From sequence record PX405663.1: 45,326 nucleotides of DNA, one strand, 5' to 3'. Of the stretch, positions 1,007 to 37,580 are shown one piece after another. The notes under the pieces were generated by a model. It did no database searches and was not told the DNA's origin. It was given only the letters and a program-made list of their open reading frames with translations. The translations under genes were made by a program, and so were the position numbers. The number at the start of each line of letters is the position of its first letter. Position 1 is the stretch's first letter. The DNA comes from a phage.

Positions 1007-1258
1007 TTATTTTGTCTCCCAGCGGTCAATTGTTTTTGCTTCGGATGCAACTGCGAAGCGAACATATTCCAGATTGGAATCCGCCCAAATATAAAAGTCG
1101 GGGTTAGTAAAGGTGGTGCGCTTAATTTGCGCGGGGGTGTTACGGCGTTTATCTATTACCGCAACGCGGGATTGAAAGCTGCCGATGCGTTCGAATAGCC
1201 AATAGTACGGGCGCTGGTCGCGGGAATCCACCGCCTCGATTAGCGTGAAGCGTGCCAT
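1007..1258 (-). CDS. hypothetical protein (83 aa)
   Basis: ORF track; GAGGA SD 8 nt upstream of ATG. Confidence 0.5.
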   Translation of the reverse strand: MARFTLIEAVDSRDQRPYYWLFERIGSFQSRVAVIDKRRNTPAQIKRTTFTNPDFYIWADSNLEYVRFAVASEAKTIDRWETK

Positions 1259-1306
1259 TGTCTCGTCCTCTAAAAATAGGCCCGCAGATTAGCGGGCCGG
1301 ATAATA

Positions 1307-1825
1307 TTAGTCTTCCAGTTCGAAATAAGTTTCGACGATTTCTTTAAGATCTTTGTGGAAGTCTTCGACGTCGTCATCTTCCAGCTTGGCGATTGATTTG
1401 ATCTCGAACGATTCCAGCAGGTCGTCGAATTCGTCGTTGGCATCGTCGTCGTCACCACCAGCGATAATAGCGGCATACTGTTTGATCTCGTCGCGCATCT
1501 CTGCCAGCGGATCGGCATCTTTCTTGCCTTTGCCTTTCGCCGGTGCTTTTTTACCCTTCGCCGGTTTTTCGTCTTCGGCTTCTTCATCGTCGTCATCTTC
1601 TACGACTTCTTTTTTGGCCTTACCTTTAGCCGGTGCTTTTTTGGTTTTCGCCGGTTTTTCGTCTTCGGTTTCATCGTCGTCATCTTCTACGACTTCTTTT
1701 TTGGCCTTAGACGGCTTCTTGTCTTCCGGCTTACCAACGGCAGCGCCAACGGTTTCATAATGCTTAGCGATGGTTTCCAGTGCTACTACGCCGCGAGTAA
1801 TCAGGTTTACGATTTGTTCAAACAT
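1307..1825 (-). CDS. highly charged tandem-repeat protein (172 aa), first gene of the minus-strand arm
   Basis: ORF track; GGAGA SD; protein has two copies of an approx 25-aa block KAKKEVVEDDDDE..EDEKPAK.KKAPAKGK and an acidic C-terminal half; underlying approx 75-bp tandem DNA repeat near 1540..1720. Confidence 0.6.
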   Translation of the reverse strand: MFEQIVNLITRGVVALETIAKHYETVGAAVGKPEDKKPSKAKKEVVEDDDDETEDEKPAKTKKAPAKGKAKKEVVEDDDDEEAEDEKPAKGKKAPAKGKGKKDADPLAEMRDEIKQYAAIIAGGDDDDANDEFDDLLESFEIKSIAKLEDDDVEDFHKDLKEIVETYFELED

Positions 1826-1925
1826 GGTATATCTCCGATTGGTTAAGTTTGGCGTCCGGGCGGTATGCCCGGTCGACGAGGGAGATATTAGATTGGTTGC
1901 AGAAGGGAGTCAACAACTAATTTCA

Positions 1926-1962
1926 AAAAAAAAGCGCCGAGGCAAAATGCAACGGCGCTAAC
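1926..1962 (-). terminator. hairpin plus T-run (read on minus strand) in the divergent control region; possible leader attenuator
   Basis: Plus strand shows A9 then AGCGCCG...CGGCGCT inverted repeat; on the minus strand this is a stem-loop followed by T9. Confidence 0.35.
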
Positions 1963-2025
1963 CAATAAGAGACAATGAGACGGGAATTATTATTACACGC
2001 GTGCGCGCCCGTTTCAATATCCAAA

Positions 2026-2058
2026 GGATTTGACACCGTGCAGTTTTGGGTGTAGTTT
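2026..2058 (+). promoter_or_regulatory. sigma70-like promoter for the plus-strand arm
   Basis: TTGACA, 17-nt spacer, TAGTTT about 35 nt upstream of the 2090 start codon. Confidence 0.4.
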
Positions 2059-2089
2059 CGTTGGTCATTAACCAACTGAGGGCAGAGCA

Positions 2090-2419
2090 ATGAATGTAAA
2101 CGACGCAATCGAAATGTTAACGAAGACTGTTAGCAGTGAAACAAGCCGGTCATGGGCTTATACCGATGCCGTTGGGGCGGTGTTGTTTGAAATCGAACGT
2201 CTGCGACTTACCGAAAAAGAATTGCGCGCGAAGCTGGAATTACTCAACGGTACTGCAGCAAGCAAGCTGCAAAAGCACAATGAAGAAATGGAAGAATACA
2301 AAAAACAGGTTATCCGTTTGCGCGCCGAGGGCAAATCCTGGGCAATGATTGCCGAGTTGACTGGGATTAATCAGAGCACAGTGCGCTCCTGGGTACGCAA
2401 TAATAAAACTTCTAAGTAA
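2090..2419 (+). CDS. coiled-coil plus C-terminal helix-turn-helix DNA-binding protein (109 aa)
   Basis: ORF track; GAGGG SD; C-terminal SWAMIAELTGINQSTVRSWV resembles an HTH. Confidence 0.55.
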   Translation: MNVNDAIEMLTKTVSSETSRSWAYTDAVGAVLFEIERLRLTEKELRAKLELLNGTAASKLQKHNEEMEEYKKQVIRLRAEGKSWAMIAELTGINQSTVRSWVRNNKTSK

Positions 2420-2429
2420 GGCCACGGCA

Positions 2430-4694
2430 ATGAGCTTAATTAAATTCGCTGTAACACGACCCGCTAAAAAAGGCGAAAAAGCCAGGGCGGAAAACTTCCA
2501 GATGACCACCGATGAATTTTTCGAATTTATCAAAGATGCGAAAGAAATCTCATCGGTGCATATCAACAAGACGGAAGATAAAGCCGAGTATGCGCGCCGC
2601 AAGCGTAAGGCCGATGGCATCGTAGCATATACCAGTGACGGCCTTCGCCGCAAGACCAGTGCGGTGGACCGCTCGATCCTGTTCTTCGATATCGACCGTA
2701 CCGACACCCGCACCTTACGCCGCTGCCGTAAGGCGTTCATTGACGCGGGTCTGGAACATGTGTTTCACACCACTACCGGCGACCGTCACCCGCTTAAAGG
2801 TGGAACGCGTTGCGCTCGCTTCCTGGTACTCACTGACAAGCCTGTACCGGCTGAAGACCTGGGCCGCGTCCAGTATGCACTATTACACCAACTGGGTCTG
2901 TCAGATGTGGACTTCGACGACTGCACGAAAGACACAAACCGCCTGATGTACCTGCCCCACCAGCAGTCTGTTATTAAGTGCCACTATGGCAAGCGCGCCC
3001 GCGTCCGTCGTCTGCTCCGCCTGGCTGACAAGCTGGGGGTGGAAAAAGAGGAAGTACGCCGCGAGCTTACCCAGGGCGACGACGCAGTGGCAGACGGTAT
3101 TCTGGACTGGTGCTTCCAGGCAGGATTCGAGGAGTTATCTTCCGGGCGGGGCTATGAAGTGCCGTGCCCGAACGAACATCTGCACAGCGGCGAAGGGTCC
3201 ACCGCCATAATGGTCAAGGATGGCGAGATCCGTTTCAAGTGTATGCACACCGGCAACGAGTGTTGCTCGGAACTGAATAGACACCAGCACCTGGCGCTAC
3301 GTCTTATCGGGATCCCGGACCACCTGAACGTCGAGCCACACAATATGTCCCGTAAGCAAATCGCCGCCATCCTTCCGGGGCTGGACGACGAGGAAGTCGA
3401 ATCCTTATATGAACATATTGTTGATGCGGTTGGAGACGGCGAAGAATACGGCGTGTGCACCGATGCGGATCTGGATAACGAGCCGGTTGCGCTGTTCAGT
3501 AAGCACGACCCGATTATCGAGGGGTTGATTAACTTTAAATCGACCTGGTACATGGCGGGTGAGTCGAATATCGGTAAGTCTTTCTATGTGCTGGGCCAGA
3601 TGGGCGCGGTTGCCGCCGGTATTCCGTTTGGTGGCGCGAAGGTCGTCCAGTCTCATTGCTTCTATTTCGACGCGGAAGGTGGCGAAGCCTCTAACCAGCG
3701 TAAAGAAGCATTGCAGATTAAATATGAGCACGACCTGGACAAGCTGCACATTATAGACCTGCAGTCACGCGGCTGGGATATCACCAGCAAATCAGGCTTG
3801 CGCGAAGTTATCAGCTTTATCAACCGCACCGCTAACGGCGAACCGGTTGGCCTGGTGGCGTTCGACTCACTCAACCAGACTGTTGCGTTGCGGTCCGCTG
3901 ATGCTAAACCGTTCGACGAGAACAACGCCAGCGATATGGGTGAAGTGGTCAAAGCGCTGAAGGCCATCGCGGAAAATACAGGTGGCAGTGCGGGCGTCAT
4001 CCACCACCCGGCTAAAGGTGCAAACGGCAGCAGAACGCCACGCGGGTCCGGCGCGCTGCATGGTGCTGTCGATTCTGCGTTCTTCCTGGAACAGCCGGAC
4101 GACAACCAGCCCGGACAATTGAACCTGTATCATGAGAAGTCACGTAACGGCATCAAGCAAGCGCCGCGCGGCTTCGTCCTGCTCAAGTGCAAGGTGAAGG
4201 TGGATCTCCGCAAGTCAGAAGCGTTCGAGGCGCACCAGTCCACCAGCACCGGGCCAGACTTCGGCGACGTGGTTGCCGGATGGGACGTCAAGCCGATTGC
4301 CTCCACGCCACGCGACGAGACTCTCTACCTCGTACCGGTTGCCCTGGCACCTTTCGCTATTGAACAGGCGAAGGCAGCAGGCAAGGCCGCGGTTAAGGAA
4401 GAGAACACCGCCGGACCGCGCAACGAAAAAGAGAAAGTGCTTTATGCGGCACTGGAAAAACTGATGGAAGATAACCCGGACCATACTGGATTCAGTAAAT
4501 CGGCAATTGTCCGCCAGGCGGGACTCGCGAAAGGCGGCACTTCGACGAAGGCAATCGACGATATGGTGGAGCGCGGGGTGATAGGTTTTTACACCGATCC
4601 GCACACCGGGGCCATCTATGGGTCGTCTAATTTGGTCATCAAATCGGATATCCCTATCACGCTTTCCGCGACCGATGACGATTTAAAAGATTAA
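2430..4694 (+). CDS. DNA primase-helicase (primase-polymerase-like N-terminal domain, zinc-binding region, P-loop NTPase/helicase C-terminal half)
   Basis: 754-aa ORF; FFDIDRTD and HVFHTTTGD primase-like motifs; CPNEHLHSG...CMHTGNEC zinc motif; Walker A GESNIGKS. Confidence 0.75.
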   Translation: MSLIKFAVTRPAKKGEKARAENFQMTTDEFFEFIKDAKEISSVHINKTEDKAEYARRKRKADGIVAYTSDGLRRKTSAVDRSILFFDIDRTDTRTLRRCRKAFIDAGLEHVFHTTTGDRHPLKGGTRCARFLVLTDKPVPAEDLGRVQYALLHQLGLSDVDFDDCTKDTNRLMYLPHQQSVIKCHYGKRARVRRLLRLADKLGVEKEEVRRELTQGDDAVADGILDWCFQAGFEELSSGRGYEVPCPNEHLHSGEGSTAIMVKDGEIRFKCMHTGNECCSELNRHQHLALRLIGIPDHLNVEPHNMSRKQIAAILPGLDDEEVESLYEHIVDAVGDGEEYGVCTDADLDNEPVALFSKHDPIIEGLINFKSTWYMAGESNIGKSFYVLGQMGAVAAGIPFGGAKVVQSHCFYFDAEGGEASNQRKEALQIKYEHDLDKLHIIDLQSRGWDITSKSGLREVISFINRTANGEPVGLVAFDSLNQTVALRSADAKPFDENNASDMGEVVKALKAIAENTGGSAGVIHHPAKGANGSRTPRGSGALHGAVDSAFFLEQPDDNQPGQLNLYHEKSRNGIKQAPRGFVLLKCKVKVDLRKSEAFEAHQSTSTGPDFGDVVAGWDVKPIASTPRDETLYLVPVALAPFAIEQAKAAGKAAVKEENTAGPRNEKEKVLYAALEKLMEDNPDHTGFSKSAIVRQAGLAKGGTSTKAIDDMVERGVIGFYTDPHTGAIYGSSNLVIKSDIPITLSATDDDLKD

Positions 4695-5510: not shown

Positions 5511-5780
5511 ATGGACCGCAGACGAGCTAAACGGCTTTCCTGGAGCATCCCATTGCATTGCGTACGAATATGGGCTAAGAATGCGAATGAGGGCGATTCT
5601 GTGTTCTGGTGCTACCGCGATGATGTGAAGCCGTTAACGCAGACTCGCTACTTGCACCAGTTCGCAGCACAACATGATTTCAGGGTGCGGACTTCCTTGC
5701 AACCAATGGGAATACGTATTACATTACGCCGGAAGCCCACCGTTGAGCGGGTAGGCAAACACTGGAGACTGAGCAAATGA
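5511..5780 (+). CDS. hypothetical protein (89 aa)
   Basis: ORF track; AAGGGG SD. Confidence 0.4.
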   Translation: MDRRRAKRLSWSIPLHCVRIWAKNANEGDSVFWCYRDDVKPLTQTRYLHQFAAQHDFRVRTSLQPMGIRITLRRKPTVERVGKHWRLSK

Positions 5781-16213: not shown

Positions 16214-16262
16214 CATTTCCTCATGTTGGTGTGCAACCAATATACTGCAACCAACATACGCA
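16214..16262 (-). promoter_or_regulatory. tandem TATTGGTTGCA promoter-like motifs driving the antisense DnaN-like operon
   Basis: Minus strand reads TATGTTGGTTGCAGTATATTGGTTGCACACCAACATGAGGA; 27 nt identical to 5143..5169. Confidence 0.55.
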
Positions 16263-27024: not shown

Positions 27025-27632
27025 CCACATTTAAATTATACGGCGTTTTAGGACGTCGATTCGGTAAAGTGCATAAGCTGGACTGCTTCACACCGGGTGA
27101 AGGAATCACCGGCTTATGTGTGAAGTTGCCAGGCTTACAGGACTTTCTAATGTCGGCCCACCTGGACAACATGATGTTCAAAGTGCGCAAGGGCAATCAC
27201 ACTATGACCGGCTACGACGAATTGGGTGAGTTCCACGGCAACCGTGTCGTCACCATCGCGCCGGTTATGACTGGCGCAAAACGCGGACTAGGCCAATTGC
27301 TGGCGGGTGTAGCGATCGTAGTGGCGTCGTTCTATACGGGCGGGCTTGCTACTGCCGCTTTCGGGGCTTCGGCTGCCACCGCTGCCGCTATCGGTACGGC
27401 GACGTTTTCGTTCGGTATGTCGATGGCGCTGGGTGGCGTTATGCAATTGCTGTCGCCACAGCCGAAAGGATTGCAGACACGGCAGGACGTAGATAACAAG
27501 GCGTCTTATGCGTTCGGCGGGCCAGTAAATACGACCGCGCAAGGTACGGCGCTTGGTGTATTATGGGGGGAGCGTGAGATCGGCGGCGCTATTATTTCCG
27601 CCGGAATCGTAACCGAGGACTTGAACGAATGA
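27015..27632 (+). CDS. tail assembly protein I-like
   Basis: 205 aa, Gly/Ala-rich hydrophobic C-terminus; synteny. Confidence 0.65.
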   Translation: MAMTTFKLYGVLGRRFGKVHKLDCFTPGEGITGLCVKLPGLQDFLMSAHLDNMMFKVRKGNHTMTGYDELGEFHGNRVVTIAPVMTGAKRGLGQLLAGVAIVVASFYTGGLATAAFGASAATAAAIGTATFSFGMSMALGGVMQLLSPQPKGLQTRQDVDNKASYAFGGPVNTTAQGTALGVLWGEREIGGAIISAGIVTEDLNE

Positions 27633-30600
27633 CGATTATCTACGACGTCACAGGGCATAAAGGCGGCGGCGGCAAACAGCACACCCCACAGGAGACGCCC
27701 GATAGCCTGCATTCGATGGCTAAAATCCGCATCTTGCTCGCACTGGGCGAAGGGGAATTCGAAGGCATTCCCGACCCTAACGAATTGCGTCAGCGCGTAT
27801 ATCTTGACGGCACCCCGATCCAGAACGAGGACCGGTCCGAAAACTTCCCGGGCGCGCGCGTGGAGTTCCGCCCAGGCACACAGCACCAGGATGTGATCCA
27901 CGGATTTTCGGCGGTGGAAAGTGAGCAATCTGTCAGCGTAAAACTGGAAAACGGCACGCCGTGGGTGCGCCAGATTAACGATACCAGTCTGGACGCCGTT
28001 CGCATTCGAGTCGGCATACCGGCCCTGTACACTAACGAAGATAATGGCGACCTGGTTGGCGGGCGCATCGACTATAAAATCGTGGTGTATACGGATAACG
28101 CCGACCCGCGTGAGTTCAGATTCGCCGCCGTTGGTAAAACAATGTCGCTGTACGAGCGCGACCACCGCATCGAATTACCGCCAAACGTGAATACTGGCTG
28201 GCGAGTGGAGGTGCACCGCATAACGGCAGACTCCACATCGGCGAAAGTGGTTAATGATATCCGGGTGCAATCCATCACTGAGATTATCGACGCCCGCCTG
28301 CGTTACCCGCTAACCGCGCTGTTGTTTGTGGAGTTCGACGCTAAAGCGTTCCAGAACATCCCGCGCGTGTCCATCAAGTGCAAAGGCCGCAAAGTTCTAA
28401 TACCTAACAACTACGACCCGATTAATCATACCTATTCCGGGGACTGGGACGGCACGTTTAAACGCGCATGGACGGATAACCCGGCGTGGCACTGGTACGA
28501 TATTTGTATTACTGAGCGCTTCGGCCTCGGTCGCCGGATCAAGCCGCAAATGCTGAACCGGTACGCGCTTTACCAGATTGCGCAGCGCTGCGATCAACTG
28601 GTCAGTGACGGCAACGGTGGTCGAGAAATCCGCTTTAAGAATGATATGTACATTCAGTCACAGACGGATGCCTGGACCGTGCTTAAGGATTTAGCCGCCA
28701 TCTTCGCCGGAATGACCTGGTGGGGCAACCAGATGTTGAATATCGTCAGTGACCAGCCGGTAGCAGCGGTGTCCCACACTATCACCAACGCCTCGGTTAT
28801 TGATGGGCGCTTCGACTACGCGTCCGGTAGCCAGAAAACTCGGTACTCCACGTTCGCAGTAGCATACGGCAACCCGAAGAACCACTATGAAGATGCCATC
28901 GCAACGGGGCAACGTGTCGAACTGGTACGCCGCCATAAGATTAACCGTCTTGATATTACGGCGATCGGCTGTACGCGTGAATCTGAAGCGCAACGCCGCG
29001 GGCACTGGGCGCTAATTTCCAACCAGCTTGACCAGCAAGTTAGCTTTAAGGTGGGCATGGAGGGGTTATTCTTTATCCCTGGTAGCGTAGTCGCGATCGC
29101 AGATACTAATATTTCTGGCGGATTCGAGACTCGTGGCGGTCGACTGTTGTCAGACCCCGGAACGCGTACCGTGCTGAACACGGACAGCGAAATCACGTTC
29201 CGCCCTGGCGATAAGTTCCTGGTGCGCACCGATAGCGGTAATGTGGAGACTCGCGAGATCGCCAGCGTCAACGGCAACAAGGTTACGCTAAAAACTGCAC
29301 TGGATGCCGACCCGATTCCAGACCAGCCGTTTTGCGTTGATGGCAACGATATCCAGTTGCAGAAGTTCCGCATAACCGACCTGGAATATGACGACTCTAC
29401 CAGCACTTTTTCGGTGCGCGGGATTGAATACAACGATAGCAAATATGATGCCGTTGATAATGGCGCGCGCCTTGACCCAGGCATCTTTACGCAAGTGCCG
29501 GACGGTGTGATGAAGGGGCCGGAATCCGTGACCATAACCCCGTCGCAGATTTCATCGCAAGGCCAGCTAATCACCAACGTGGATATTGTTTTCCCGCCGG
29601 TTAAGGATGCCGTGGTGTATGAAATCCAGTGGCGACGTACCAGCTTGCAGAATATGGAAATCCAGTGGGGCAACGACTGGGTGAATATTCCGCGCACGGC
29701 GTCGAATGGCGCGCACATTCCTAACGTGTTCTCCGGTAACTACCAGGCACGCGTCCGTGCGATCGGTATGGGCGAGATTTCGTCCCCGTGGGTGTCGTCC
29801 GCTATCACGCCGATAGAAGGTCGTCTCGGCGGGCTTAACGCGCCTATCATCACCAACGCGATTTCGGGCCTCCACCAAATTTTGTGGAAGTGGAACCACA
29901 ACAACGCCGCGACGGATATTTCGTACACCGAGCTTGAAGTGCGCAAGACCGGTGAAACGGAGTGGAAATTTCTTACCAACGTCCCATATCCAGGGGCGGA
30001 GTATGCGCAAACGTCACTGGAGTTCGGGATCTATCAGCAGTTGCGCGCCCGTGTAGCGGATAAAATCGGCAACCTGTCGGACTGGTCGGCCCCGTTTGAA
30101 GGGCAGGTGAGTGACAAAGTTGACGAATACATGAAGGGGCTTGATGACGAGTTCTTGACTTCCGAGGACGGTAAACGCTTCCAGGAAGCGATCGACACCA
30201 TGCCGCAAGGTATCTATGAGTCTATGCTTACGGACGCCCAGCAGCTATTCAATGCCCGCGCCGAGTATAAAGGGATTTATGCGGAAATCACGGTGGCGTA
30301 TAACGTGGCGGCGGACGCGCATAAAGCCGTAGCGCAACTGGAAACGTTGATCGGCACGCGCCTTGATGACGCCGAAGCATCAATCCACACGTTGCAGACT
30401 GCGCAAAGCACACATGAACAAGCGTTCGCCCAGTACCAGCAAACTGTTGCCGCTAAGTTTTCGGAACAGGAAGCAGCCATCCAGCAGGTACAAACGGCAA
30501 CGGCGGACGTGGCTGGCGCACTGGCTGAGTACAAGACCCAGGTCGCGGCGCAGTTCGGTCAGCAGTCCGCAGCTATCGAGCAGAAGATGACGTCTTCGTT

Positions 30601-31075
30601 TAACCATGCTGGTGGCAGCGCCACGTACAGTCTTAAGGCTGGCGTGACGTATAACGGGACTTACTATGACGCCGGTATGCAGCTTTCGGTTGTGACGTCT
30701 GGCAACGCAGTTAAATCGCGTATTGCGTTCAAAGCCGACCAGTTCTATATCATGCACCCATCTAATGGGTCGCTTTCGTCCGCGTTTATCGTTGATGGTG
30801 GGCAGGTGTACATCGACACGGCACGCATCAAGGATGCGTCAATCAACTTTGCACAGATCACGGACACGCTGCAATCAAATAACTTCGTTTCCGGGTCACG
30901 TGGCTGGCGTATCCAGAAAGGCGGGGCCGCGGAGTTTAACGAGGTGACGGTGCGCGGCAACTTGTTCGCGACTACTGGTAACTTCGGGTTTTCCGGCGGG
31001 ACGGTGACGATCGACGCCACAGGCGTTAATGTGCCATTACCCGGCGGGGGGAGGGTGAAAGTCGGTACGTGGTAA
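27629..31075 (+). CDS. central tail fibre / tail tip protein J-like
   Basis: 1148-aa ORF, ATGA overlap with upstream gene; size and position. Confidence 0.85.
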   Translation: MTIIYDVTGHKGGGGKQHTPQETPDSLHSMAKIRILLALGEGEFEGIPDPNELRQRVYLDGTPIQNEDRSENFPGARVEFRPGTQHQDVIHGFSAVESEQSVSVKLENGTPWVRQINDTSLDAVRIRVGIPALYTNEDNGDLVGGRIDYKIVVYTDNADPREFRFAAVGKTMSLYERDHRIELPPNVNTGWRVEVHRITADSTSAKVVNDIRVQSITEIIDARLRYPLTALLFVEFDAKAFQNIPRVSIKCKGRKVLIPNNYDPINHTYSGDWDGTFKRAWTDNPAWHWYDICITERFGLGRRIKPQMLNRYALYQIAQRCDQLVSDGNGGREIRFKNDMYIQSQTDAWTVLKDLAAIFAGMTWWGNQMLNIVSDQPVAAVSHTITNASVIDGRFDYASGSQKTRYSTFAVAYGNPKNHYEDAIATGQRVELVRRHKINRLDITAIGCTRESEAQRRGHWALISNQLDQQVSFKVGMEGLFFIPGSVVAIADTNISGGFETRGGRLLSDPGTRTVLNTDSEITFRPGDKFLVRTDSGNVETREIASVNGNKVTLKTALDADPIPDQPFCVDGNDIQLQKFRITDLEYDDSTSTFSVRGIEYNDSKYDAVDNGARLDPGIFTQVPDGVMKGPESVTITPSQISSQGQLITNVDIVFPPVKDAVVYEIQWRRTSLQNMEIQWGNDWVNIPRTASNGAHIPNVFSGNYQARVRAIGMGEISSPWVSSAITPIEGRLGGLNAPIITNAISGLHQILWKWNHNNAATDISYTELEVRKTGETEWKFLTNVPYPGAEYAQTSLEFGIYQQLRARVADKIGNLSDWSAPFEGQVSDKVDEYMKGLDDEFLTSEDGKRFQEAIDTMPQGIYESMLTDAQQLFNARAEYKGIYAEITVAYNVAADAHKAVAQLETLIGTRLDDAEASIHTLQTAQSTHEQAFAQYQQTVAAKFSEQEAAIQQVQTATADVAGALAEYKTQVAAQFGQQSAAIEQKMTSSFNHAGGSATYSLKAGVTYNGTYYDAGMQLSVVTSGNAVKSRIAFKADQFYIMHPSNGSLSSAFIVDGGQVYIDTARIKDASINFAQITDTLQSNNFVSGSRGWRIQKGGAAEFNEVTVRGNLFATTGNFGFSGGTVTIDATGVNVPLPGGGRVKVGTW

Positions 31076-31102
31076 ATGCGAAGGGGCCATCCGGCCCCAT
31101 TT

Positions 31103-32068
31103 TCAATACATATTTGGGATGACGAGTAGCGGGGTAGGTACGGCAATATTTTTACCCGGCATCTGAAATTGCTGCCGTGAGTAGTTGCCGATGACGCGGT
31201 TTTTAGCGACGCGCACATTATTACCCGCCATGCGAATACCGTTCATGCGGACGTGATTATAGCCCCCGTTGTTCTGAATCAGCGCACCGGTGTATGAAAG
31301 CTGGATCAGGCTGTTTCCAATATTCTGGTCGCCCGTTCCGATGTTAATAGTGCGGTCATATACGAACGGCTTGTTCACCGTCGAGAACGTGACCTGATTC
31401 TGGCTATTCGTCATGGTGATCCCGGCCCCTGGCGTTGGTGGTGTATTGTTGAATATTACCAAATCCATGTCCACCGAAGCCGCCACATCGTCGATGCCAC
31501 CGTAGGACGCGTTGCGGACGATAATACTGCCGCCGTCGAAGCCTACTGATACGTTGCCATCGTCCCATCGGGCGAATGGGACACCGCTAACGGGCAATGC
31601 CATACTACCGTTGACGCGCACGCGCTGTGCGTATCGGCAGGTCATTAGCTTAGTCACGTTGGATATAGCGGTGAAGTCCGTCGAGTTCTCCACCAGTAAG
31701 CCCGCGTTACGTGAACCAACCGGCAGCACTTCCATTATGACGCCTGCCCATTGTGGTAAGCCAGAGTACGCGCCATACGCATCCTCCCCGCGCAGGGTGA
31801 TACCACTATTCCCGTTGCGGGTAACAGACGTAACGTAAAACGGGTCGGGAATTACCAGGGTCTGGTCGAATACCTCAATCACTTCTACCGGGCGAGTAAG
31901 CGCGACGACGACCTGCGACCCCTCCGTAAGAGGGGTATTAATCGTAAGCGTCTTGTTGGACTGGCAGCGCTGATCAAACGCAGTGCAGTATGACGGAGCG
32001 CGCAACCCGGCGGTTATCTCCATTACCGGCCTGCCGTCGTTATAGTCGATAAGTATTCCAGCGCCCAT
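31103..32068 (-). CDS. Asn/Gly/Val-rich beta-rich protein (about 321 aa), antisense between J and the tail fibre; receptor-related candidate
   Basis: Track ORF 31103..32077; the second ATG has the better GGGAG spacing. Confidence 0.5.
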   Translation of the reverse strand: MGAGILIDYNDGRPVMEITAGLRAPSYCTAFDQRCQSNKTLTINTPLTEGSQVVVALTRPVEVIEVFDQTLVIPDPFYVTSVTRNGNSGITLRGEDAYGAYSGLPQWAGVIMEVLPVGSRNAGLLVENSTDFTAISNVTKLMTCRYAQRVRVNGSMALPVSGVPFARWDDGNVSVGFDGGSIIVRNASYGGIDDVAASVDMDLVIFNNTPPTPGAGITMTNSQNQVTFSTVNKPFVYDRTINIGTGDQNIGNSLIQLSYTGALIQNNGGYNHVRMNGIRMAGNNVRVAKNRVIGNYSRQQFQMPGKNIAVPTPLLVIPNMY

Positions 32069-32070
32069 TA

Positions 32071-32292
32071 TTACCACTCCCGTGATTTAACTGATACTGT
32101 GCCTGAGAAGTTGCCGTCGCTATCGGATGACAGCCCAGTGAATCGCATGTCTACATCTCCTGCCGGGACTTTTTGCCCGTCAACGTAGCGCAACATGCAG
32201 CTACCGTAAGCAACCGTAACGCAATCGCCGTTGTTGCGATCTACGGCGCAACCGGACAAAAGAACCGCACAAATCATAATTAAAGTTTTCAT
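32071..32292 (-). CDS. small lipoprotein (about 73 aa), candidate superinfection-exclusion lipoprotein
   Basis: Track ORF 32071..32355 trimmed to MKTLIMICAVLLSGCAV (signal peptide with lipobox LSGC). Confidence 0.55.
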   Translation of the reverse strand: MKTLIMICAVLLSGCAVDRNNGDCVTVAYGSCMLRYVDGQKVPAGDVDMRFTGLSSDSDGNFSGTVSVKSREW

Positions 32293-32334
32293 GGTATCAT
32301 CTCTTATATTTGGTTGAGTTTTAGTATTACACCG

Positions 32335-32362
32335 CTCAACCAGGATTGCAACCAATTTACGA
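32335..32362 (-). promoter_or_regulatory. TATTGGTTGCA-type promoter-like motif oriented toward the antisense lipoprotein gene
   Basis: Minus strand reads AAATTGGTTGCAATCC about 45 nt upstream of the lipoprotein start; overlaps the tail fibre SD on the other strand. Confidence 0.45.
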
Positions 32363-32372
32363 GGATTTAGCT

Positions 32373-34688
32373 ATGGCAGCGGGTACGCTATCCGTAACGA
32401 ACAATAGCAAGGCGGTAGTAGGGGTCGGCACGACGTTTACCGCGTTTAAAGCTGGCGACTTCTTAACGCTGGTGGTAGGACAAGTCCCATACACCGTGGC
32501 AATCGCGTCCGTTGAAAGCGCAACCGCGCTTACGCTGGTGCTGCCGTTCGACGGCCCAACGGCAACCGGCCTCGCGTGGGATGGTGTTAAGCGCGATACC
32601 ATGTCACTGGCGACGATGGGCGTAACCGTACAGGCGCAGAAAGCGTTGCGATTGATGATCGCCGATGAAAACAACTGGCGTGCAATCTTCGGAGACGAAG
32701 AAGAAATCTCGATCACGCTGCCGAATGGTCAGGTAATGCAGGGTATGTCGTGGGGCTACCTGTCGTCTTTGCTGAAGGAAGTAGACCCCGTTGAGATGCG
32801 CAACCTGCAACAACAAGCCGCCGCATCTGAAGCCGCCGCGCAAGGATTTCGCAATGAGGCGGAAGGCTTCAAGAACACCGCGAATACCGCGAAAGATGCC
32901 GCAGTAGCAGCGAAGACCGCGGCGGAGACTGCACGGGGCGAAGCCAACACCGCAAAAACGGCAGCAGAGTCCGCAAAGACCGCCGCGGAGACCGCTAAAG
33001 ACCAGGCCGTAACCGCTAAAGACCAGGCTAAAGTCTTCCGCGACGAGGCCGAGGGTTTCGCAAATAGCACAGACGCGTCACAGAAAGTGCCGTACGCGGG
33101 TGTGCAAGTAGCATCTGCAACTGGAATGGCGGACCTGCTCAAGCAGTTGCGCGATAATGTTAAAGGTGGATTCTGGCGCATCGCTAATACATCTCAGTTC
33201 CCCGAGGGCGAACTGAGACCTTTTACACACGGACCCGGTATTTGTGGTGGTGCTGGGGATACATTCTTTGCTATTAACGTTGATTACTCATCAGCGCGCG
33301 TTAAAGTTTACGCTGGAAACAATAACGCTATCAATGGTACGAGTGGACAGGTGCGCGCCCTTGAGTTGGCTAGGCTAGATTCCCCCACTTTTACGGGTAA
33401 AGTGAATGCGCCTAATATTGGGGTTGGCACGGTTACACTACGGCCCGTAACTTCCGGGGAAGGCAGCGGTGACGGGGTTGTTTGGGAGTCTAGAAACGCC
33501 TCGGAGGCAAGTTTCGGTATTGCGAATGTCGGCGGGGGGTCCGCGGTTTTCCACAACTACTCAAAACCGGCAAACGGATCCGGCGTGGCTACAGGAGTGC
33601 TTATTGGGGGGTATGGGTCGCGTCCGTGGACTGGTACTACATATACGGACCACTCAAACGTGTCGCAGCACTTCCTCATGGACGGGACCGCTTCGGATAC
33701 TAACCACGGCGGCTGGTTTAGGTTGCTAACAACCCCATTGAATAAGACCAACGCCGACCGGAGGCAAACATTCGCGACCAGCAACAACGGCGACCTTTAT
33801 ATAGGTTTCGATGTGCCTATGGGGCTTTATAAGCTAACGCAGGAAAGTTACAACGGATTGGAAGTATTAAACGGTCGCGGTCTTAAACAAGTAAATAACA
33901 CAGCTAATGAAATAGCCTTAATCACCCCACGAAACGGGTCGACCGCTAATATAAACATCCGAGGTGTGGCTTTTGACGGCACAATGGCTGGCACTAAGGG
34001 GGCAACTCAGCCGGGAGACAACTTGTGGCTATCTTTTGCAGGTCACGATGGGGTGAAATTCACGGGTGCCGCTGCCGGTATGCGTATTCAGGCGTCGACT
34101 GGCTGGTCAACCACAAACACGCAATGCGGAATAACGTTTGCGACAACGAAAGCAGGGTCCACGCAGAGGGTGGATCGGTGGAGCATTACGAGCGACGGGT
34201 CGCTGTCCCCCGCAGCCGACAACACATACCCGATCGGCAGTGCAGTCTCCCGTGTTACCGCAGTCTTTGCCACAAATGGTGCAATACAGACCTCGGATGC
34301 AAGAATGAAGACCGAGGTTAGGGGTTTAACAGCGGCTGAGATGGGTGCCTCTAAAGAAATCGCCCGTGAGATTGGTATTTTCCAGTGGCTTGCGCGAGTA
34401 GCCGAAGAGGGGGATGAGGCGAGGCTCCATGCCGGTATTACCGTGCAGAAAGTGATGGAAATCATGCGGTCTTACGGTCTGGACCCCTTGAAGTATGGAT
34501 TCGTGTGTTACGACGAATGGGAGGAGACTTCAGAGGTTATAAGCGACCCCGATGATAATTCGAAGTCGACGATCAAGATAACCCCCGCGGGCAATAGATA
34601 TAGCTTGCGATATTCGGAACTAAACGTGTTTATCGCCCGAGGACTTGAGCAAAGAATCTCAGAACTGGAGGCTAAGTTAGCTGGTTGA
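32373..34688 (+). CDS. side tail fibre with C-terminal intramolecular chaperone (peptidase S74-like) domain
   Basis: Track ORF 32346..34688 (TTG) trimmed to the ATG 8 nt after GAGGA; C-terminal SDARMK...IGIFQWL...LKYGFVCYDEWEE...RISELEAKLAG resembles the self-cleaving chaperone of endosialidase/L-shaped fibres. Confidence 0.75.
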   Translation: MAAGTLSVTNNSKAVVGVGTTFTAFKAGDFLTLVVGQVPYTVAIASVESATALTLVLPFDGPTATGLAWDGVKRDTMSLATMGVTVQAQKALRLMIADENNWRAIFGDEEEISITLPNGQVMQGMSWGYLSSLLKEVDPVEMRNLQQQAAASEAAAQGFRNEAEGFKNTANTAKDAAVAAKTAAETARGEANTAKTAAESAKTAAETAKDQAVTAKDQAKVFRDEAEGFANSTDASQKVPYAGVQVASATGMADLLKQLRDNVKGGFWRIANTSQFPEGELRPFTHGPGICGGAGDTFFAINVDYSSARVKVYAGNNNAINGTSGQVRALELARLDSPTFTGKVNAPNIGVGTVTLRPVTSGEGSGDGVVWESRNASEASFGIANVGGGSAVFHNYSKPANGSGVATGVLIGGYGSRPWTGTTYTDHSNVSQHFLMDGTASDTNHGGWFRLLTTPLNKTNADRRQTFATSNNGDLYIGFDVPMGLYKLTQESYNGLEVLNGRGLKQVNNTANEIALITPRNGSTANINIRGVAFDGTMAGTKGATQPGDNLWLSFAGHDGVKFTGAAAGMRIQASTGWSTTNTQCGITFATTKAGSTQRVDRWSITSDGSLSPAADNTYPIGSAVSRVTAVFATNGAIQTSDARMKTEVRGLTAAEMGASKEIAREIGIFQWLARVAEEGDEARLHAGITVQKVMEIMRSYGLDPLKYGFVCYDEWEETSEVISDPDDNSKSTIKITPAGNRYSLRYSELNVFIARGLEQRISELEAKLAG

Positions 34689-35332: not shown

Positions 35333-35827
35333 TTATTTAAGTGCGCCAGTCACCAGTGTTTTTTCCATGTTGCGGAAGTCTTCCGGCGTCATGAGGATTT
35401 TGGATCCGTCTTCGCCGGTGAGCACGACCATAGGCTGGAATTCTTGACCCGCAATGCCGAACTTAGCAGCATTGAAATTAGTGGCTTTGATCTTGGTAGG
35501 CCAGTCTTTTAGGCTGTCGTATTGCGCTGCCGTTGTATCGACCTGGATCTCGTCCTGCACGGTCATATAAGACTCGCCCAGCAGGGCGGCATACGCCACC
35601 AGATCCACGATATTATCTTCCTGGTGCTTACGGTGCTGGCGCACCAGCTTCAGGCAGATCAGGAAGGTCCAGGCTTCTTGCTCGGTCAGGTCGCGACCGG
35701 TAAGCGCGTTAAACACGGCGGCGATCTGTTTAGCGCTGCGTTCTTCTTTCGCGTTGTCATAGCCGTTTTCTTTCCCGCGCTGTTCCATAGTGGTGGCGGC
35801 GTTTTTGCAGTATTCGTATGCTTTCAT
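35333..35827 (-). CDS. hypothetical protein (about 164 aa)
   Basis: Track ORF 35333..35953 trimmed to MKAYEY with AAGGA SD. Confidence 0.5.
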   Translation of the reverse strand: MKAYEYCKNAATTMEQRGKENGYDNAKEERSAKQIAAVFNALTGRDLTEQEAWTFLICLKLVRQHRKHQEDNIVDLVAYAALLGESYMTVQDEIQVDTTAAQYDSLKDWPTKIKATNFNAAKFGIAGQEFQPMVVLTGEDGSKILMTPEDFRNMEKTLVTGALK

Positions 35828-35837
35828 TATGTTTTCC

Positions 35838-35905
35838 TTTTTAGTGGGGGCGGTATTGCCCCCGACGTGATTAAGATACTGCAACCAACCTATTGGTTGC
35901 AAGTG
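35838..35905 (-). promoter_or_regulatory. inverted pair of TGCAACCAA/TTGGTTGCA motifs followed by a leader hairpin
   Basis: Plus strand 35880..35902 TGCAACCAACCTATTGGTTGCA; GGGGGCGGTATTGCCCCC hairpin between motif and SD. Confidence 0.45.
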
Positions 35906-36360
35906 AATTTTGCAACGTTTATCGCATAAATTTTCGGGACCAGATCGCCGCACGCCCGACGAATTGCCGCGATGTTCTTCGGACAGTCTTCAATGATGAC
36001 CAGTTCCGACACGTCCGCGTAACAGACCATTTTGAACACGGCGCACGCCTTAAACTCTGGTGGCGGGGTGTCGTCCAGCATGTGGCGCATAAACAACCGG
36101 CCTACAGGGAATACCTCCAATTGCTCGGCGGTAGTGTCCCAACATTCTCTCTGCCGGTTGGTCAGATACGCGATCTCGAAGCCTTGATCTCTGTACATGC
36201 GCAGCAGCGGCAGCATATCCATGTTCAGGTCTTCGCGTACGTGCGCTTTGTGCCACTTCGCCCAAAATGTTGATTTGGTTTTTATACCCGGAACCAGGTC
36301 GGCACGCGCATCGCTTGAACCGTTAATAACGCCATCCAGATCGCAAATCAGTAATTTCAT
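35890..36360 (-). CDS. HAD-superfamily phosphatase-like protein
   Basis: 156 aa; N-terminal LICDLDGVI matches HAD motif I; GAGGAG SD. Confidence 0.5.
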   Translation of the reverse strand: MKLLICDLDGVINGSSDARADLVPGIKTKSTFWAKWHKAHVREDLNMDMLPLLRMYRDQGFEIAYLTNRQRECWDTTAEQLEVFPVGRLFMRHMLDDTPPPEFKACAVFKMVCYADVSELVIIEDCPKNIAAIRRACGDLVPKIYAINVAKFTCNQ

Positions 36361-37501: not shown

Positions 37502-37580
37502 TCCAGGTATTAAAAAGGGCGTCCAAACCGGACACCCTCAATATAATGCAACCAATACGATTATGCAACCAATTTACGCA
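37502..37580 (-). promoter_or_regulatory. tandem TATTGGTTGCA motifs with TATATT, followed by leader hairpin plus T-run
   Basis: Minus strand reads AAATTGGTTGCATAATCGTATTGGTTGCATTATATTGAG then GGGTGTCCGGTTTGGACGCCC TTTTT then SD and ATG. Confidence 0.5.

What the first reader, a model, noticed from the sequence alone, without database searches (positions are those of the whole stretch)
31103..32292. Antisense lipoprotein plus beta-rich protein pair wedged between the J-like tail tip gene and the side tail fibre gene
A small secreted lipoprotein (lipobox LSGC) is followed on the minus strand by a 321-aa Asn/Gly/Val-rich protein, with a TTGGTTGCA motif upstream. Small lipoproteins encoded next to receptor-binding genes in T5-like and T1-like phages (Llp, Cor) block the phage receptor to give superinfection exclusion; the larger protein could be a receptor-binding or exclusion partner.
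Basis: partly seen in the sequence, partly recalled or inferred. Interest (0 to 1): 0.6.

Follow-up and report, generated by a model that had tools for sequence, protein, structure and literature searches.

The report
LptD-binding tail protein plus exclusion lipoprotein
These two genes are the already described module that Oekolampad-like coliphages use to bind the outer-membrane LPS exporter LptD (321-aa tail-tip protein) and then, very probably, to block that receptor from the periplasm with a small lipoprotein; it is a known, ordinary feature of this phage group.

Summary
On the minus strand, between the J-like gene and the lateral tail fibre gene, lie a 73-aa lipoprotein gene (32071-32292, lipobox LSGC) and a 321-aa gene (31103-32068), 2 nt apart.

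The window is a Dhillonvirus genome, about 92% nucleotide identity to Oekolampad/Bas18, Gluttony and SO-1.

The 321-aa protein (Pfam DUF6453) is 96.3% identical over its full length to the Oekolampad receptor-binding protein. That protein's cryo-EM structure bound to the LPS translocon LptDE is in the PDB (9RPT/9RPW/9RQI; PNAS 2025, PMC12685063).

The lipoprotein (Pfam PF24052) is 97.3% identical to Oekolampad bas18_0026 and 38% identical to Rtp45. Rtp45 was solved bound to the periplasmic face of LptDE (9RPS) and displaces loop EL4, so the receptor-binding protein cannot bind.

The receptor is LptD, not FhuA, BtuB or LamB, and neither protein is homologous to pb5, Llp or Cor.

Exclusion by the Oekolampad-type lipoprotein itself has not been shown.

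The TTGGTTGCA motif is real but occurs 11 times across the genome, mostly upstream of genes, so it is not specific to this locus.

Verdict: already known; low interest.

The parts
27629..31075 (+). J-like central tail fibre / tail tip protein (1148 aa). It is the presumed docking platform for the separately encoded receptor-binding protein.
   Evidence: Pfam FNIII-A_GpJ, Phage-tail_3 and Phage_Tail_Tip; phrog_31 'central tail fiber J'. It is 97.1% identical to Oekolampad bas18_0024, with 189 of the C-terminal 200 residues identical. The literature says Dhillonvirus J lacks a C-terminal receptor-binding domain (PMC12309495), and that the receptor-binding protein is thought to attach non-covalently to J (PMC8594841).
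31083..31098 (.). GC-rich hairpin GGGGCC-ATCC-GGCCCC between the converging J gene and receptor-binding protein gene. It is terminator-like on the + strand (followed by ATTTT). The same hairpin lies 4 nt after the receptor-binding protein's stop codon on the - strand, where the T tract is weaker.
   Evidence: the only terminator-like site in 30900-32600; sequence.
31103..32068 (-). Receptor-binding protein (321 aa, 34.5 kDa) of the central tail fibre, specific for the outer-membrane LPS translocon LptD(E). Orthologue of Oekolampad bas18_0025 (RBPOeko) and a distant homologue of Rtp44.
   Evidence: Pfam DUF6453, E 4.5e-121. PDB 9RPT/9RPW/9RQI chain C, E 3.3e-205 over residues 1-321. 309/321 residues identical to bas18_0025 and 34% to Rtp44. 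No transmembrane segment: maximum Kyte-Doolittle 19-residue average is 1.2. Gln299, which hydrogen-bonds LptD Ser350 in the complex, is invariant in 8 Dhillonviruses.
32071..32292 (-). Small lipoprotein (73-aa precursor; mature form 59 aa, 6.3 kDa). Probable superinfection-exclusion factor acting on the periplasmic face of LptD. Orthologue of Oekolampad bas18_0026 (SEOeko) and homologue of Rtp45.
   Evidence: Pfam PF24052 Phage_lipoprotein, 76.3 bits against a cut-off of 27; phrog_4281. 71/73 residues identical to bas18_0026. PDB 9RPS chain D (Rtp45), E 1.2e-8; 38% identity to Rtp45 with the C-x7-C pair (Cys24/Cys32) aligned to the Rtp45 Cys30-Cys38 disulfide. Lipobox LSGC, Cys15, Ala at +2.
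32293..32372 (.). 80-bp divergent intergenic region between the lipoprotein gene and the lateral tail fibre gene. It contains the candidate promoter of the lipoprotein/receptor-binding protein operon on the - strand: -35 TTGCAA (32351-32346), a 17-nt spacer, then TGt-AATACT (-10 at 32328-32323). It also contains an 8-bp inverted repeat, TGGTTGAG (32311-32318) / CTCAACCA (32335-32342), that straddles the -10.
   Evidence: Sequence. Hexamer scoring gives 4/6 + 4/6 with a TG extension. This is below the threshold of the scan, which did not list it. Mean column identity is 97% across 8 Dhillonviruses, and PEC9 and Bas84 carry a two-sided change in the repeat (T>C with A>G).
32347..32355 (-). It is one of 11 copies of a recurrent element found upstream of genes across the genome, and here it overlaps the -35-like hexamer.
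   Evidence: 11 matches against 0.53 expected; 0 of 100 shuffles reach 11. Site contexts. Invariant in 8 relatives. Oekolampad also has 11 copies: 9 lie between annotated genes, and 6 of those are 31-80 nt upstream of the next gene on their strand.

Best explanation
This is the LptD-type "bona fide RBP locus" of small siphoviruses, a two-gene operon read towards the J gene.

**The 321-aa product.** It is a monomeric beta-sandwich receptor-binding protein. It is thought to sit on the distal end of the trimeric J-like tail tip. It inserts its loop-bearing tip into the lumen of an open state of the outer-membrane LPS translocon LptDE, contacting LptD extracellular loops EL3-5 and EL11. This gives irreversible adsorption. 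Binding is shown for the 96%-identical Oekolampad protein; the position on J is inferred.

**The upstream gene.** It makes a Sec/signal peptidase II-processed lipoprotein, sorted to the inner leaflet of the outer membrane. By homology to Rtp45, it binds the periplasmic side of LptD between LptE and LptM and pushes a hairpin up the barrel lumen. That displaces EL4 by up to about 20 A, so LptD can no longer accept the receptor-binding protein. Infected cells and their debris then stop adsorbing progeny or superinfecting LptD-dependent phages. This role is inferred for this lipoprotein; the structure exists only for Rtp45.

**Expression.** Both genes are probably transcribed together from a sigma-70-like promoter that carries the genome's recurrent TTGGTTGCA element (inferred).
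For: **Receptor-binding protein.**
- PDB sequence search finds one hit, 9RPT/9RPW/9RQI chain C, E 3.3e-205, full length. The 12 differences are the same as those against Oekolampad bas18_0025, and PMC12685063 names these entries as SfLptDE bound to the Oekolampad receptor-binding protein.
- That paper reports a 2.8 A map, an interface of about 1,700 A2, and 20 hydrogen bonds. LptD point mutants Y671N and D352Y, selected as Oekolampad-resistant, abolish binding of the protein in vitro.
- Maffei et al. 2021 linked this locus allele to LptD dependence in Bas18 and six other phages.
- A 2026 preprint confirms that the locus downstream of gpJ tracks receptor specificity.

**Lipoprotein.**
- PF24052 above cut-off.
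- 97.3% identical to SEOeko.
- Homologous to Rtp45 in 9RPS, with both disulfide cysteines aligned.
- The Rtp45 mechanism is described.

**Synteny.** The order J(+), receptor-binding protein(-), lipoprotein(-) is the same in 7 Dhillonviruses and in Rtp.

**Distribution.** Receptor-binding protein homologues occur in 440 phage records and lipoprotein homologues in 323.

**Lipoprotein features and operon layout:**
Against: - Nothing was measured for this phage itself.
- Exclusion by the Oekolampad-type lipoprotein is untested: its expression failed, and the structural work used Rtp45, which is only 35-38% identical. The spot assays in that paper were done only on LptD mutants, not on cells expressing the lipoprotein.
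- In vitro formation of the complex between the Oekolampad protein and LptDE is very slow and involved a degraded LptD jellyroll domain.
- The 12 substitutions relative to the Oekolampad protein could not be mapped onto the interface here.
- Attachment of the receptor-binding protein to J is assumed from genetics and models, not from a virion structure.
- The proposed promoter scores 8/12 and was not listed by the consensus scan.
Confidence: 0.92

Rival explanations
1. A Cor- or Llp-type system aimed at a TonB-dependent transporter or porin (FhuA, BtuB, LamB). The lipoprotein would block FhuA-like receptors, and the 321-aa protein would bind them.
For: A weak phrog_1119 (Cor) hit, E 0.0013. 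Other Dhillonviruses do use FhuA, through different alleles of this locus.
Against: The Cor match covers only residues 1-30, which is the signal peptide. The full-length matches are to PF24052/Rtp45 and DUF6453/RBPOeko. The PDB sequence search returns no Llp, pb5 or FhuA-complex chain. FhuA-, BtuB-, LptD- and YncD-linked alleles are described as four unrelated protein families.
Confidence: 0.02
2. The 321-aa protein is a host-directed 'membrane protein' moron, as PHROGs and RefSeq label it, and not a virion component.
For: phrog_1265 is annotated 'membrane protein; moron, auxiliary metabolic gene and host takeover'. Several RefSeq records repeat 'membrane protein'. The gene is transcribed against the structural genes.
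Against: There is no signal peptide and no hydrophobic segment (maximum Kyte-Doolittle 19-residue average 1.2). The orthologue is a soluble protein that binds the extracellular face of LptDE, and LptD resistance mutations abolish that binding.
Confidence: 0.02
3. The lipoprotein's main role is something other than, or more than, exclusion. It could throttle LPS export through LptD during infection, help the receptor-binding protein fold or assemble, or protect progeny only at lysis.
For: In the Rtp45 structure a hairpin occupies the LptD lumen and LptM is displaced. The lipoprotein and the receptor-binding protein are co-transcribed and nearly translationally coupled. No in vivo exclusion data exist for this subfamily.
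Against: The Rtp45-induced EL4 conformation directly clashes with binding of the receptor-binding protein, which is a sufficient exclusion mechanism. In Gordonclarkvirinae the lipoprotein homologue lies 45 kb from the DUF6453 gene, which argues against an obligate chaperone role. The lipoprotein is periplasmic and the receptor-binding protein is cytoplasmic until lysis.
Confidence: 0.06

Closest known systems
Oekolampad (Bas18) receptor-binding protein bas18_0025, RBPOeko; PDB 9RPT, 9RPW, 9RQI (Dunbar et al., PNAS 2025, PMC12685063)
   Same: Same length (321 aa), 96.3% identity, same Pfam family (DUF6453), same position and orientation downstream of a 97%-identical J protein, and Gln299 retained.
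   Different: Twelve substitutions (window residue first, Oekolampad residue second): V15R, A30S, D32N, C35A, E49A, E95D, E127A, T139A, Q148K, A215T, S222N, G246S. Most also occur as natural variants in other Dhillonviruses. Their position relative to the LptD interface was not mapped.
Rtp45, the superinfection-exclusion lipoprotein of phage Rtp; PDB 9RPS. Also Oekolampad bas18_0026 (SEOeko).
   Same: Same Pfam family (PF24052), a lipobox, a C-x7-C cysteine pair, the conserved VPAG(D/E)VD(M/V)R(F/Y) core, a mature size of about 6 kDa, and a gene immediately upstream of the receptor-binding protein gene on the same strand. 97.3% identical to SEOeko.
   Different: Only 38% identical to Rtp45, with a 5-residue insertion and a different C-terminal third. 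SEOeko could not be expressed, so binding and exclusion are untested for this subfamily.
Phage T5 pb5 (receptor-binding protein, binds FhuA) and Llp (exclusion lipoprotein)
   Same: The same logic: a dedicated monomeric receptor-binding protein at the tip of a siphovirus tail, plus a small periplasmic outer-membrane lipoprotein that makes the receptor unable to bind it. The two genes are adjacent (PMC12685063 and PMC9586334).
   Different: No detectable sequence similarity. The receptor is LptD, not a TonB-dependent transporter. [quoted passage not shown] Here the two genes form one operon. From my own recollection (Decker et al. 1994, not checked here), T5 llp is expressed early and separately from oad.
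Cor lipoproteins of phi80, N15, HK022 and T1 (FhuA inactivation)
   Same: A small lipoprotein encoded next to the tail tip or host-specificity genes, and associated with exclusion.
   Different: Similarity is confined to the signal peptide (phrog_1119, residues 1-30, E 0.0013). Cor is a different family acting on a different receptor.
Lambda gpJ C-terminal receptor-binding domain (binds LamB)
   Same: The same structural site, the end of the central tail fibre, and the same job.
   Different: In lambda the receptor-binding domain is part of J. Here J ends about 30 residues after the Phage_Tail_Tip domain, and receptor binding is carried out by a separate gene product.

Membership tests
LptD-targeting receptor-binding proteins of small siphoviruses (Pfam DUF6453 / RBPOeko / Rtp44) | Sequence match to PF20051 above the gathering score, over the full length | tested here: met
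   404.1 bits against a cut-off of 25; residues 4-297 match profile positions 1-290 of 291.
LptD-targeting receptor-binding proteins of small siphoviruses (Pfam DUF6453 / RBPOeko / Rtp44) | Homology to a member with an experimentally solved complex with LptDE | tested here: met
   9RPT chain C, E 3.3e-205 over residues 1-321; 309/321 identical; 34% identity to Rtp44.
LptD-targeting receptor-binding proteins of small siphoviruses (Pfam DUF6453 / RBPOeko / Rtp44) | Encoded directly downstream of a gpJ homologue, paired with a small lipoprotein gene | tested here: met
   J stop at 31075 and receptor-binding protein stop at 31103, converging. The lipoprotein gene is immediately upstream on the same strand. 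The layout is identical in 7 Dhillonviruses and in Rtp.
LptD-targeting receptor-binding proteins of small siphoviruses (Pfam DUF6453 / RBPOeko / Rtp44) | Physical binding to LptD, and dependence of infection on LptD loops EL4, EL5 and EL11 | not testable with these tools
   Shown for Oekolampad. Needs plating on lptD mutants or a pull-down for this phage.
Rtp45-type phage lipoproteins (Pfam PF24052) | Sequence match to PF24052 above the gathering score | tested here: met
   76.3 bits against a cut-off of 27; residues 3-73 match profile positions 8-80 of 80.
Rtp45-type phage lipoproteins (Pfam PF24052) | Signal peptide with a lipobox, and a non-Asp residue at +2 (outer-membrane sorting) | tested here: met
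   MK, a hydrophobic core, then L-S-G-C15 followed by Ala16. This is a rule-based reading only; no SignalP or LipoP was available and processing is untested.
Rtp45-type phage lipoproteins (Pfam PF24052) | Cysteine pair corresponding to the Rtp45 Cys30-Cys38 disulfide | tested here: met
   Cys24 and Cys32 align with the two Rtp45 cysteines. The disulfide is described.
Rtp45-type phage lipoproteins (Pfam PF24052) | Binds periplasmic LptD and prevents binding of the receptor-binding protein (exclusion phenotype) | not testable with these tools
   The structure exists for Rtp45 only, and expression of the Oekolampad orthologue failed.
Cor superinfection-exclusion lipoproteins (phrog_1119) | Full-length similarity to the Cor family | tested here: not met
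   E 0.0013, covering only residues 1-30 (the signal peptide) of 73.
T5 Llp / pb5 | Detectable sequence similarity to Llp or pb5, both of which are in the PDB | tested here: not met
   PDB-wide phmmer at E<=1 (lipoprotein) and E<=0.01 (321-aa protein) returned no Llp or pb5 chain. No fold comparison was run.

The most novel reading that the evidence does not exclude
The Oekolampad-type lipoprotein has never been expressed or assayed, and it may do more than exclusion. If it plugs the LptD lumen as Rtp45 does, it could shut down or rewire LPS (and LptM) export in the infected cell. That would make it a phage-encoded inhibitor of an essential outer-membrane machine. Its co-transcription with the receptor-binding protein from the genome's recurrent TTGGTTGCA promoter/operator element would tie receptor blockade to a specific stage of infection.
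Probability: 0.08. Interest if true: 0.5.

Novelty: already known. Interest (0 to 1): 0.1.

Why it matters
It matters little as a discovery. The module was predicted in 2021 and solved by cryo-EM in 2025 for a phage whose two proteins are 96-97% identical to these.

It is useful for annotation. Public records still call these genes 'hypothetical protein' or 'membrane protein', and this window's phage can confidently be predicted to depend on LptD.

The one open experimental point is whether this lipoprotein subfamily really confers exclusion.

Tried and rejected
- **Cor/FhuA reading.** Rejected: the PHROG Cor hit covers only the signal peptide.
- **pb5/Llp homology.** Rejected at the sequence level.
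- **'Membrane protein' annotation of the 321-aa protein.** Rejected: no hydrophobic segment, and the orthologue is soluble.
- **O-spanin reading of the lipoprotein.** Considered and dropped. The spanin genes are annotated elsewhere in the Oekolampad genome, and this protein is a full-length PF24052 member.
- **TTGGTTGCA as a locus-specific signal.** Rejected: 11 copies across the genome.
- **The inverted repeat as an mRNA hairpin of the lipoprotein transcript.** Unlikely, because its 5' arm lies upstream of the predicted -10 element.
- **Wietzorrek et al. 2006 (Rtp genome paper).** Could not be retrieved. What I recall of it, that Rtp45 was proposed as Cor-like and that repeated inverted repeats were proposed for regulator Rtp52, is memory only.
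- **Contact residues of the Oekolampad protein.** The supplementary files held as text did not list them, so the 12 substitutions were not mapped.
- **Structure prediction and the large protein-database searches.** Deliberately not run, because a 96%-identical solved structure already answers the question.

Full report
**1. Observation.**

The region 31103-32292 holds two minus-strand ORFs.
- The first is a 73-aa ORF at 32071-32292 that begins MKTLIMICAVLLSGC.
- The second is a 321-aa ORF, with its ATG at 32068 and its stop at 31103-31105.

The lipoprotein stop codon TAA lies 2 nt before the second ATG, and a GGGAG Shine-Dalgarno sequence precedes that ATG, so the two genes form one operon.

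The lipoprotein precursor has a lipobox, L-S-G-C15, with Ala at +2. The mature form is 59 aa and 6.3 kDa, with further cysteines at positions 24 and 32.

The larger protein is Val/Gly/Asn-rich (10.6, 10.3 and 9.0%). It has no hydrophobic segment: the maximum Kyte-Doolittle 19-residue average is 1.2.

The pair sits between two plus-strand genes.
- Upstream is a J-like gene at 27629-31075, with Pfam FNIII-A_GpJ, Phage-tail_3 and Phage_Tail_Tip.
- Downstream is a lateral tail fibre gene at 32373-34688, with a C-terminal S74 chaperone domain.

A GC-rich hairpin at 31083-31098 separates the converging J gene and 321-aa gene.

**2. What the window is.**

Megablast places the locus and the left 25 kb of the window in the genus Dhillonvirus. 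Nucleotide identity is about 92-93% to Gluttony_ev152, Oekolampad (Bas18), SO-1, StarDew and others. The same four-gene layout (J +, 321-aa gene -, lipoprotein gene -, lateral fibre +) is annotated in all seven Dhillonvirus relatives fetched and in the Drexlerviridae phage Rtp, where the genes are rtp43, rtp44 and rtp45.

**3. Identity of the two proteins.**

*Family assignments.*
- The lipoprotein is a full-length member of Pfam PF24052 'Phage_lipoprotein' (76.3 bits, cut-off 27) and of phrog_4281.
- The 321-aa protein is a full-length member of DUF6453 (404 bits) and of phrog_1265.

*The 321-aa protein.* A sequence search of the PDB gives a single hit, chain C of 9RPT/9RPW/9RQI, at E 3.3e-205 over all 321 residues. 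The 12 differences are exactly those found against Oekolampad bas18_0025 (96.3% identity).

*The lipoprotein.* It hits chain D of 9RPS, 'Phage lipoprotein', at E 1.2e-8. It is 97.3% identical to Oekolampad bas18_0026. It is 38% identical to Rtp45, and both non-lipobox cysteines align with the Rtp45 pair.

**4. What is known about these proteins.**

*Maffei et al. 2021 (PMC8594841).*
- Small siphoviruses carry 'bona fide RBP loci' directly downstream of gpJ, together with cognate exclusion genes.
- The allele at this locus matches the terminal receptor.
- Oekolampad (Bas18) and six other phages that share this allele are blocked by in-frame deletions in lptD.

*Black et al. 2025 (PMC13035648).* They modelled this receptor-binding protein family as two lectin-like beta-sandwiches with a loop-bearing tip.

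*Dunbar et al. 2025 (PNAS, PMC12685063) on the receptor-binding protein.*
- The interface is about 1,700 A2, with contacts to EL3-5 and EL11. One of them is Gln299 to LptD Ser350.
- The spontaneous resistance mutations Y671N and D352Y abolish binding in vitro.
- Gln299 is present here and is invariant in the eight Dhillonvirus proteins aligned.

*Dunbar et al. 2025 on the lipoprotein.*
- Expression of the Oekolampad lipoprotein failed, so they solved Rtp45 on LptDE instead.
- Rtp45 binds the periplasmic side between LptE and LptM and sends a hairpin up the lumen.
- This displaces EL4 by up to 20 A, a state incompatible with binding of the receptor-binding protein.
- It is a steric mechanism, not the allosteric one of T5 Llp on FhuA.

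A 2026 preprint summarises both results in the same terms.

**5. Mechanism, and what is shown versus inferred.**

*Shown, for a 96%-identical orthologue:* the 321-aa protein binds LptD, and LptD loop mutations that block infection also block binding.

*Inferred from genetics and models only:* the receptor-binding protein docks on the C-terminus of J. Dhillonvirus J is reported to lack its own receptor-binding domain.

*Inferred from 38% homology to Rtp45 plus conserved hallmarks:* the lipoprotein is lipidated, reaches the outer membrane, binds periplasmic LptD and causes exclusion. No in vivo exclusion assay was found for either Rtp45 or the Oekolampad-type protein in the papers read. This is the one real gap.

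**6. Rivals.**
- *A Cor/Llp-type system aimed at FhuA.* This is excluded at the level of family membership. The Cor PHROG hit covers only the signal peptide, and neither protein finds Llp or pb5 in the PDB.
- *The database label 'membrane protein / moron' for the 321-aa protein.* This is contradicted by the lack of any hydrophobic segment and by the soluble, LptD-binding orthologue.
- *An additional role for the lipoprotein, such as interference with LPS export.* This is not excluded, but it is speculative.

**7. The TTGGTTGCA motif.**

The motif is at 32347-32355 (-), 63 nt upstream of the lipoprotein ATG. It occurs 11 times in the window, against 0.53 expected.

Oekolampad also has 11 copies. 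Nine of these lie between annotated genes, and six of the nine are 31-80 nt upstream of the next gene on their strand.

At this locus the motif supplies a -35-like TTGCAA, followed after 17 nt by TGt-AATACT. That is weaker than the threshold of the consensus scan, which did not list it.

The whole 80-bp intergenic region is 97% conserved across eight Dhillonviruses. I read the motif as a shared phage promoter or operator element, not as something particular to this operon.

**8. Comparison and novelty.**

Functionally this is the LptD counterpart of T5 pb5/Llp. By descent it belongs with RBPOeko/Rtp44 and with SEOeko/Rtp45. Homologues of the receptor-binding protein occur in 440 phage records and homologues of the lipoprotein in 323, in phages of Escherichia, Shigella, Klebsiella, Salmonella and others.

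The finding is a correct reading of an already characterised module. Novelty: already known. Interest: 0.1. Its practical value is better annotation and a confident prediction that this phage depends on LptD.

Noticed in passing
L008 (Escherichia phage EP335, NC_070979.1) 1147-3190 and L009 1468-1749; also phiEco32, SU7, NJ01 and ECBP2: Gordonclarkvirinae (phiEco32/Kuravirus-like) podoviruses carry distant homologues of both halves of the LptD module.

- EP335 gp018, annotated 'tail fiber protein', has the J-type Phage_Tail_Tip domain (E 1e-24).
- It is directly followed by gp019, a DUF6453 protein (E 2.1e-23; 25% identity to the window's receptor-binding protein).
- gp105, in the early region 45 kb away, is a PF24052 lipoprotein (E 3.5e-36; 34% identity; both cysteines kept).

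No paper in the held library links this subfamily to LptD. The SU10 virion paper describes a tail needle (gp18) resolved only to 15 A and never mentions gp19. I did not verify that gene numbering corresponds between SU10 and EP335.

Lead: these podoviruses may use LptD, or a related outer-membrane protein, as terminal receptor through a DUF6453 protein on the needle tip.
   Followed up: partly
window, + strand at 1893, 5114, 5145 and 35893; - strand at 5698-5706, 16232-16240, 16246-16254, 32347-32355, 35880-35888, 37547-37555 and 37564-37572: TTGGTTGCA occurs 11 times (0.53 expected; 0 of 100 shuffles reach 11).

- Copies often come in pairs 14-31 nt apart.
- In several pairs the first copy supplies a -35-like TTGCAn and the second is preceded by TATATT at the spacing expected for a -10 element.
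- At 35880-35901 two copies form a perfect inverted pair, TGCAACCAA-N4-TTGGTTGCA.
- Oekolampad also has 11 copies. Nine lie between annotated genes, and six of those are 31-80 nt upstream of the next gene on their strand.

It is probably a phage promoter or operator element. No cognate regulator was identified.
   Followed up: partly
window 32311-32342: An inverted repeat, TGGTTGAG-N16-CTCAACCA, lies between the lipoprotein and lateral fibre genes. Each arm resembles the TTGGTTGCA motif.

PEC9 and Bas84 carry a change on both arms (T>C with A>G) that keeps complementarity. EK99P-1 and AV129 carry one-sided changes that would still pair as G-U only on the + strand.

It could be a dyad operator over the -10 of the lipoprotein promoter, or a hairpin in the 5' UTR of the lateral tail fibre mRNA. 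There are too few sequences to decide.
   Followed up: partly
window 32373-34688 (+): The lateral tail fibre (771 aa, S74 intramolecular chaperone at the C-terminus) is mosaic.

- Residues 1-335 are about 80-83% identical to other Dhillonviruses.
- The distal part is shared at full length with only one record in the collection (phiEco273, 89%).
- Residues 298-769 are about 52% identical to Klebsiella phage fibres.
- It is only 37% identical overall to the Oekolampad fibre, whereas J, the receptor-binding protein and the lipoprotein are 96-97% identical.

This suggests a recent swap of the glycan-binding distal fibre, independent of the LptD module.
   Followed up: partly
window 32293-32305 (-), ribosome-binding site of the lipoprotein gene: The window has AAGAGATGATACC-ATG where the seven relatives have AGGAG, AGGGG or AGGTG. 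The Shine-Dalgarno sequence of the lipoprotein gene is therefore weakened by a G>A change in this phage. The consequence is unknown.
   Followed up: no
window 35333-35953 (-): The mechanical ORF starts at a GTG (206 aa). However, a TTGGTTGCA site at 35880-35888 and a good ribosome-binding site (AAAAGGAAAACATA-ATG) precede an internal ATG that begins MKAYEY. The real gene is probably the shorter form, which matches the 522-nt bas18_0029 in Oekolampad.
   Followed up: no
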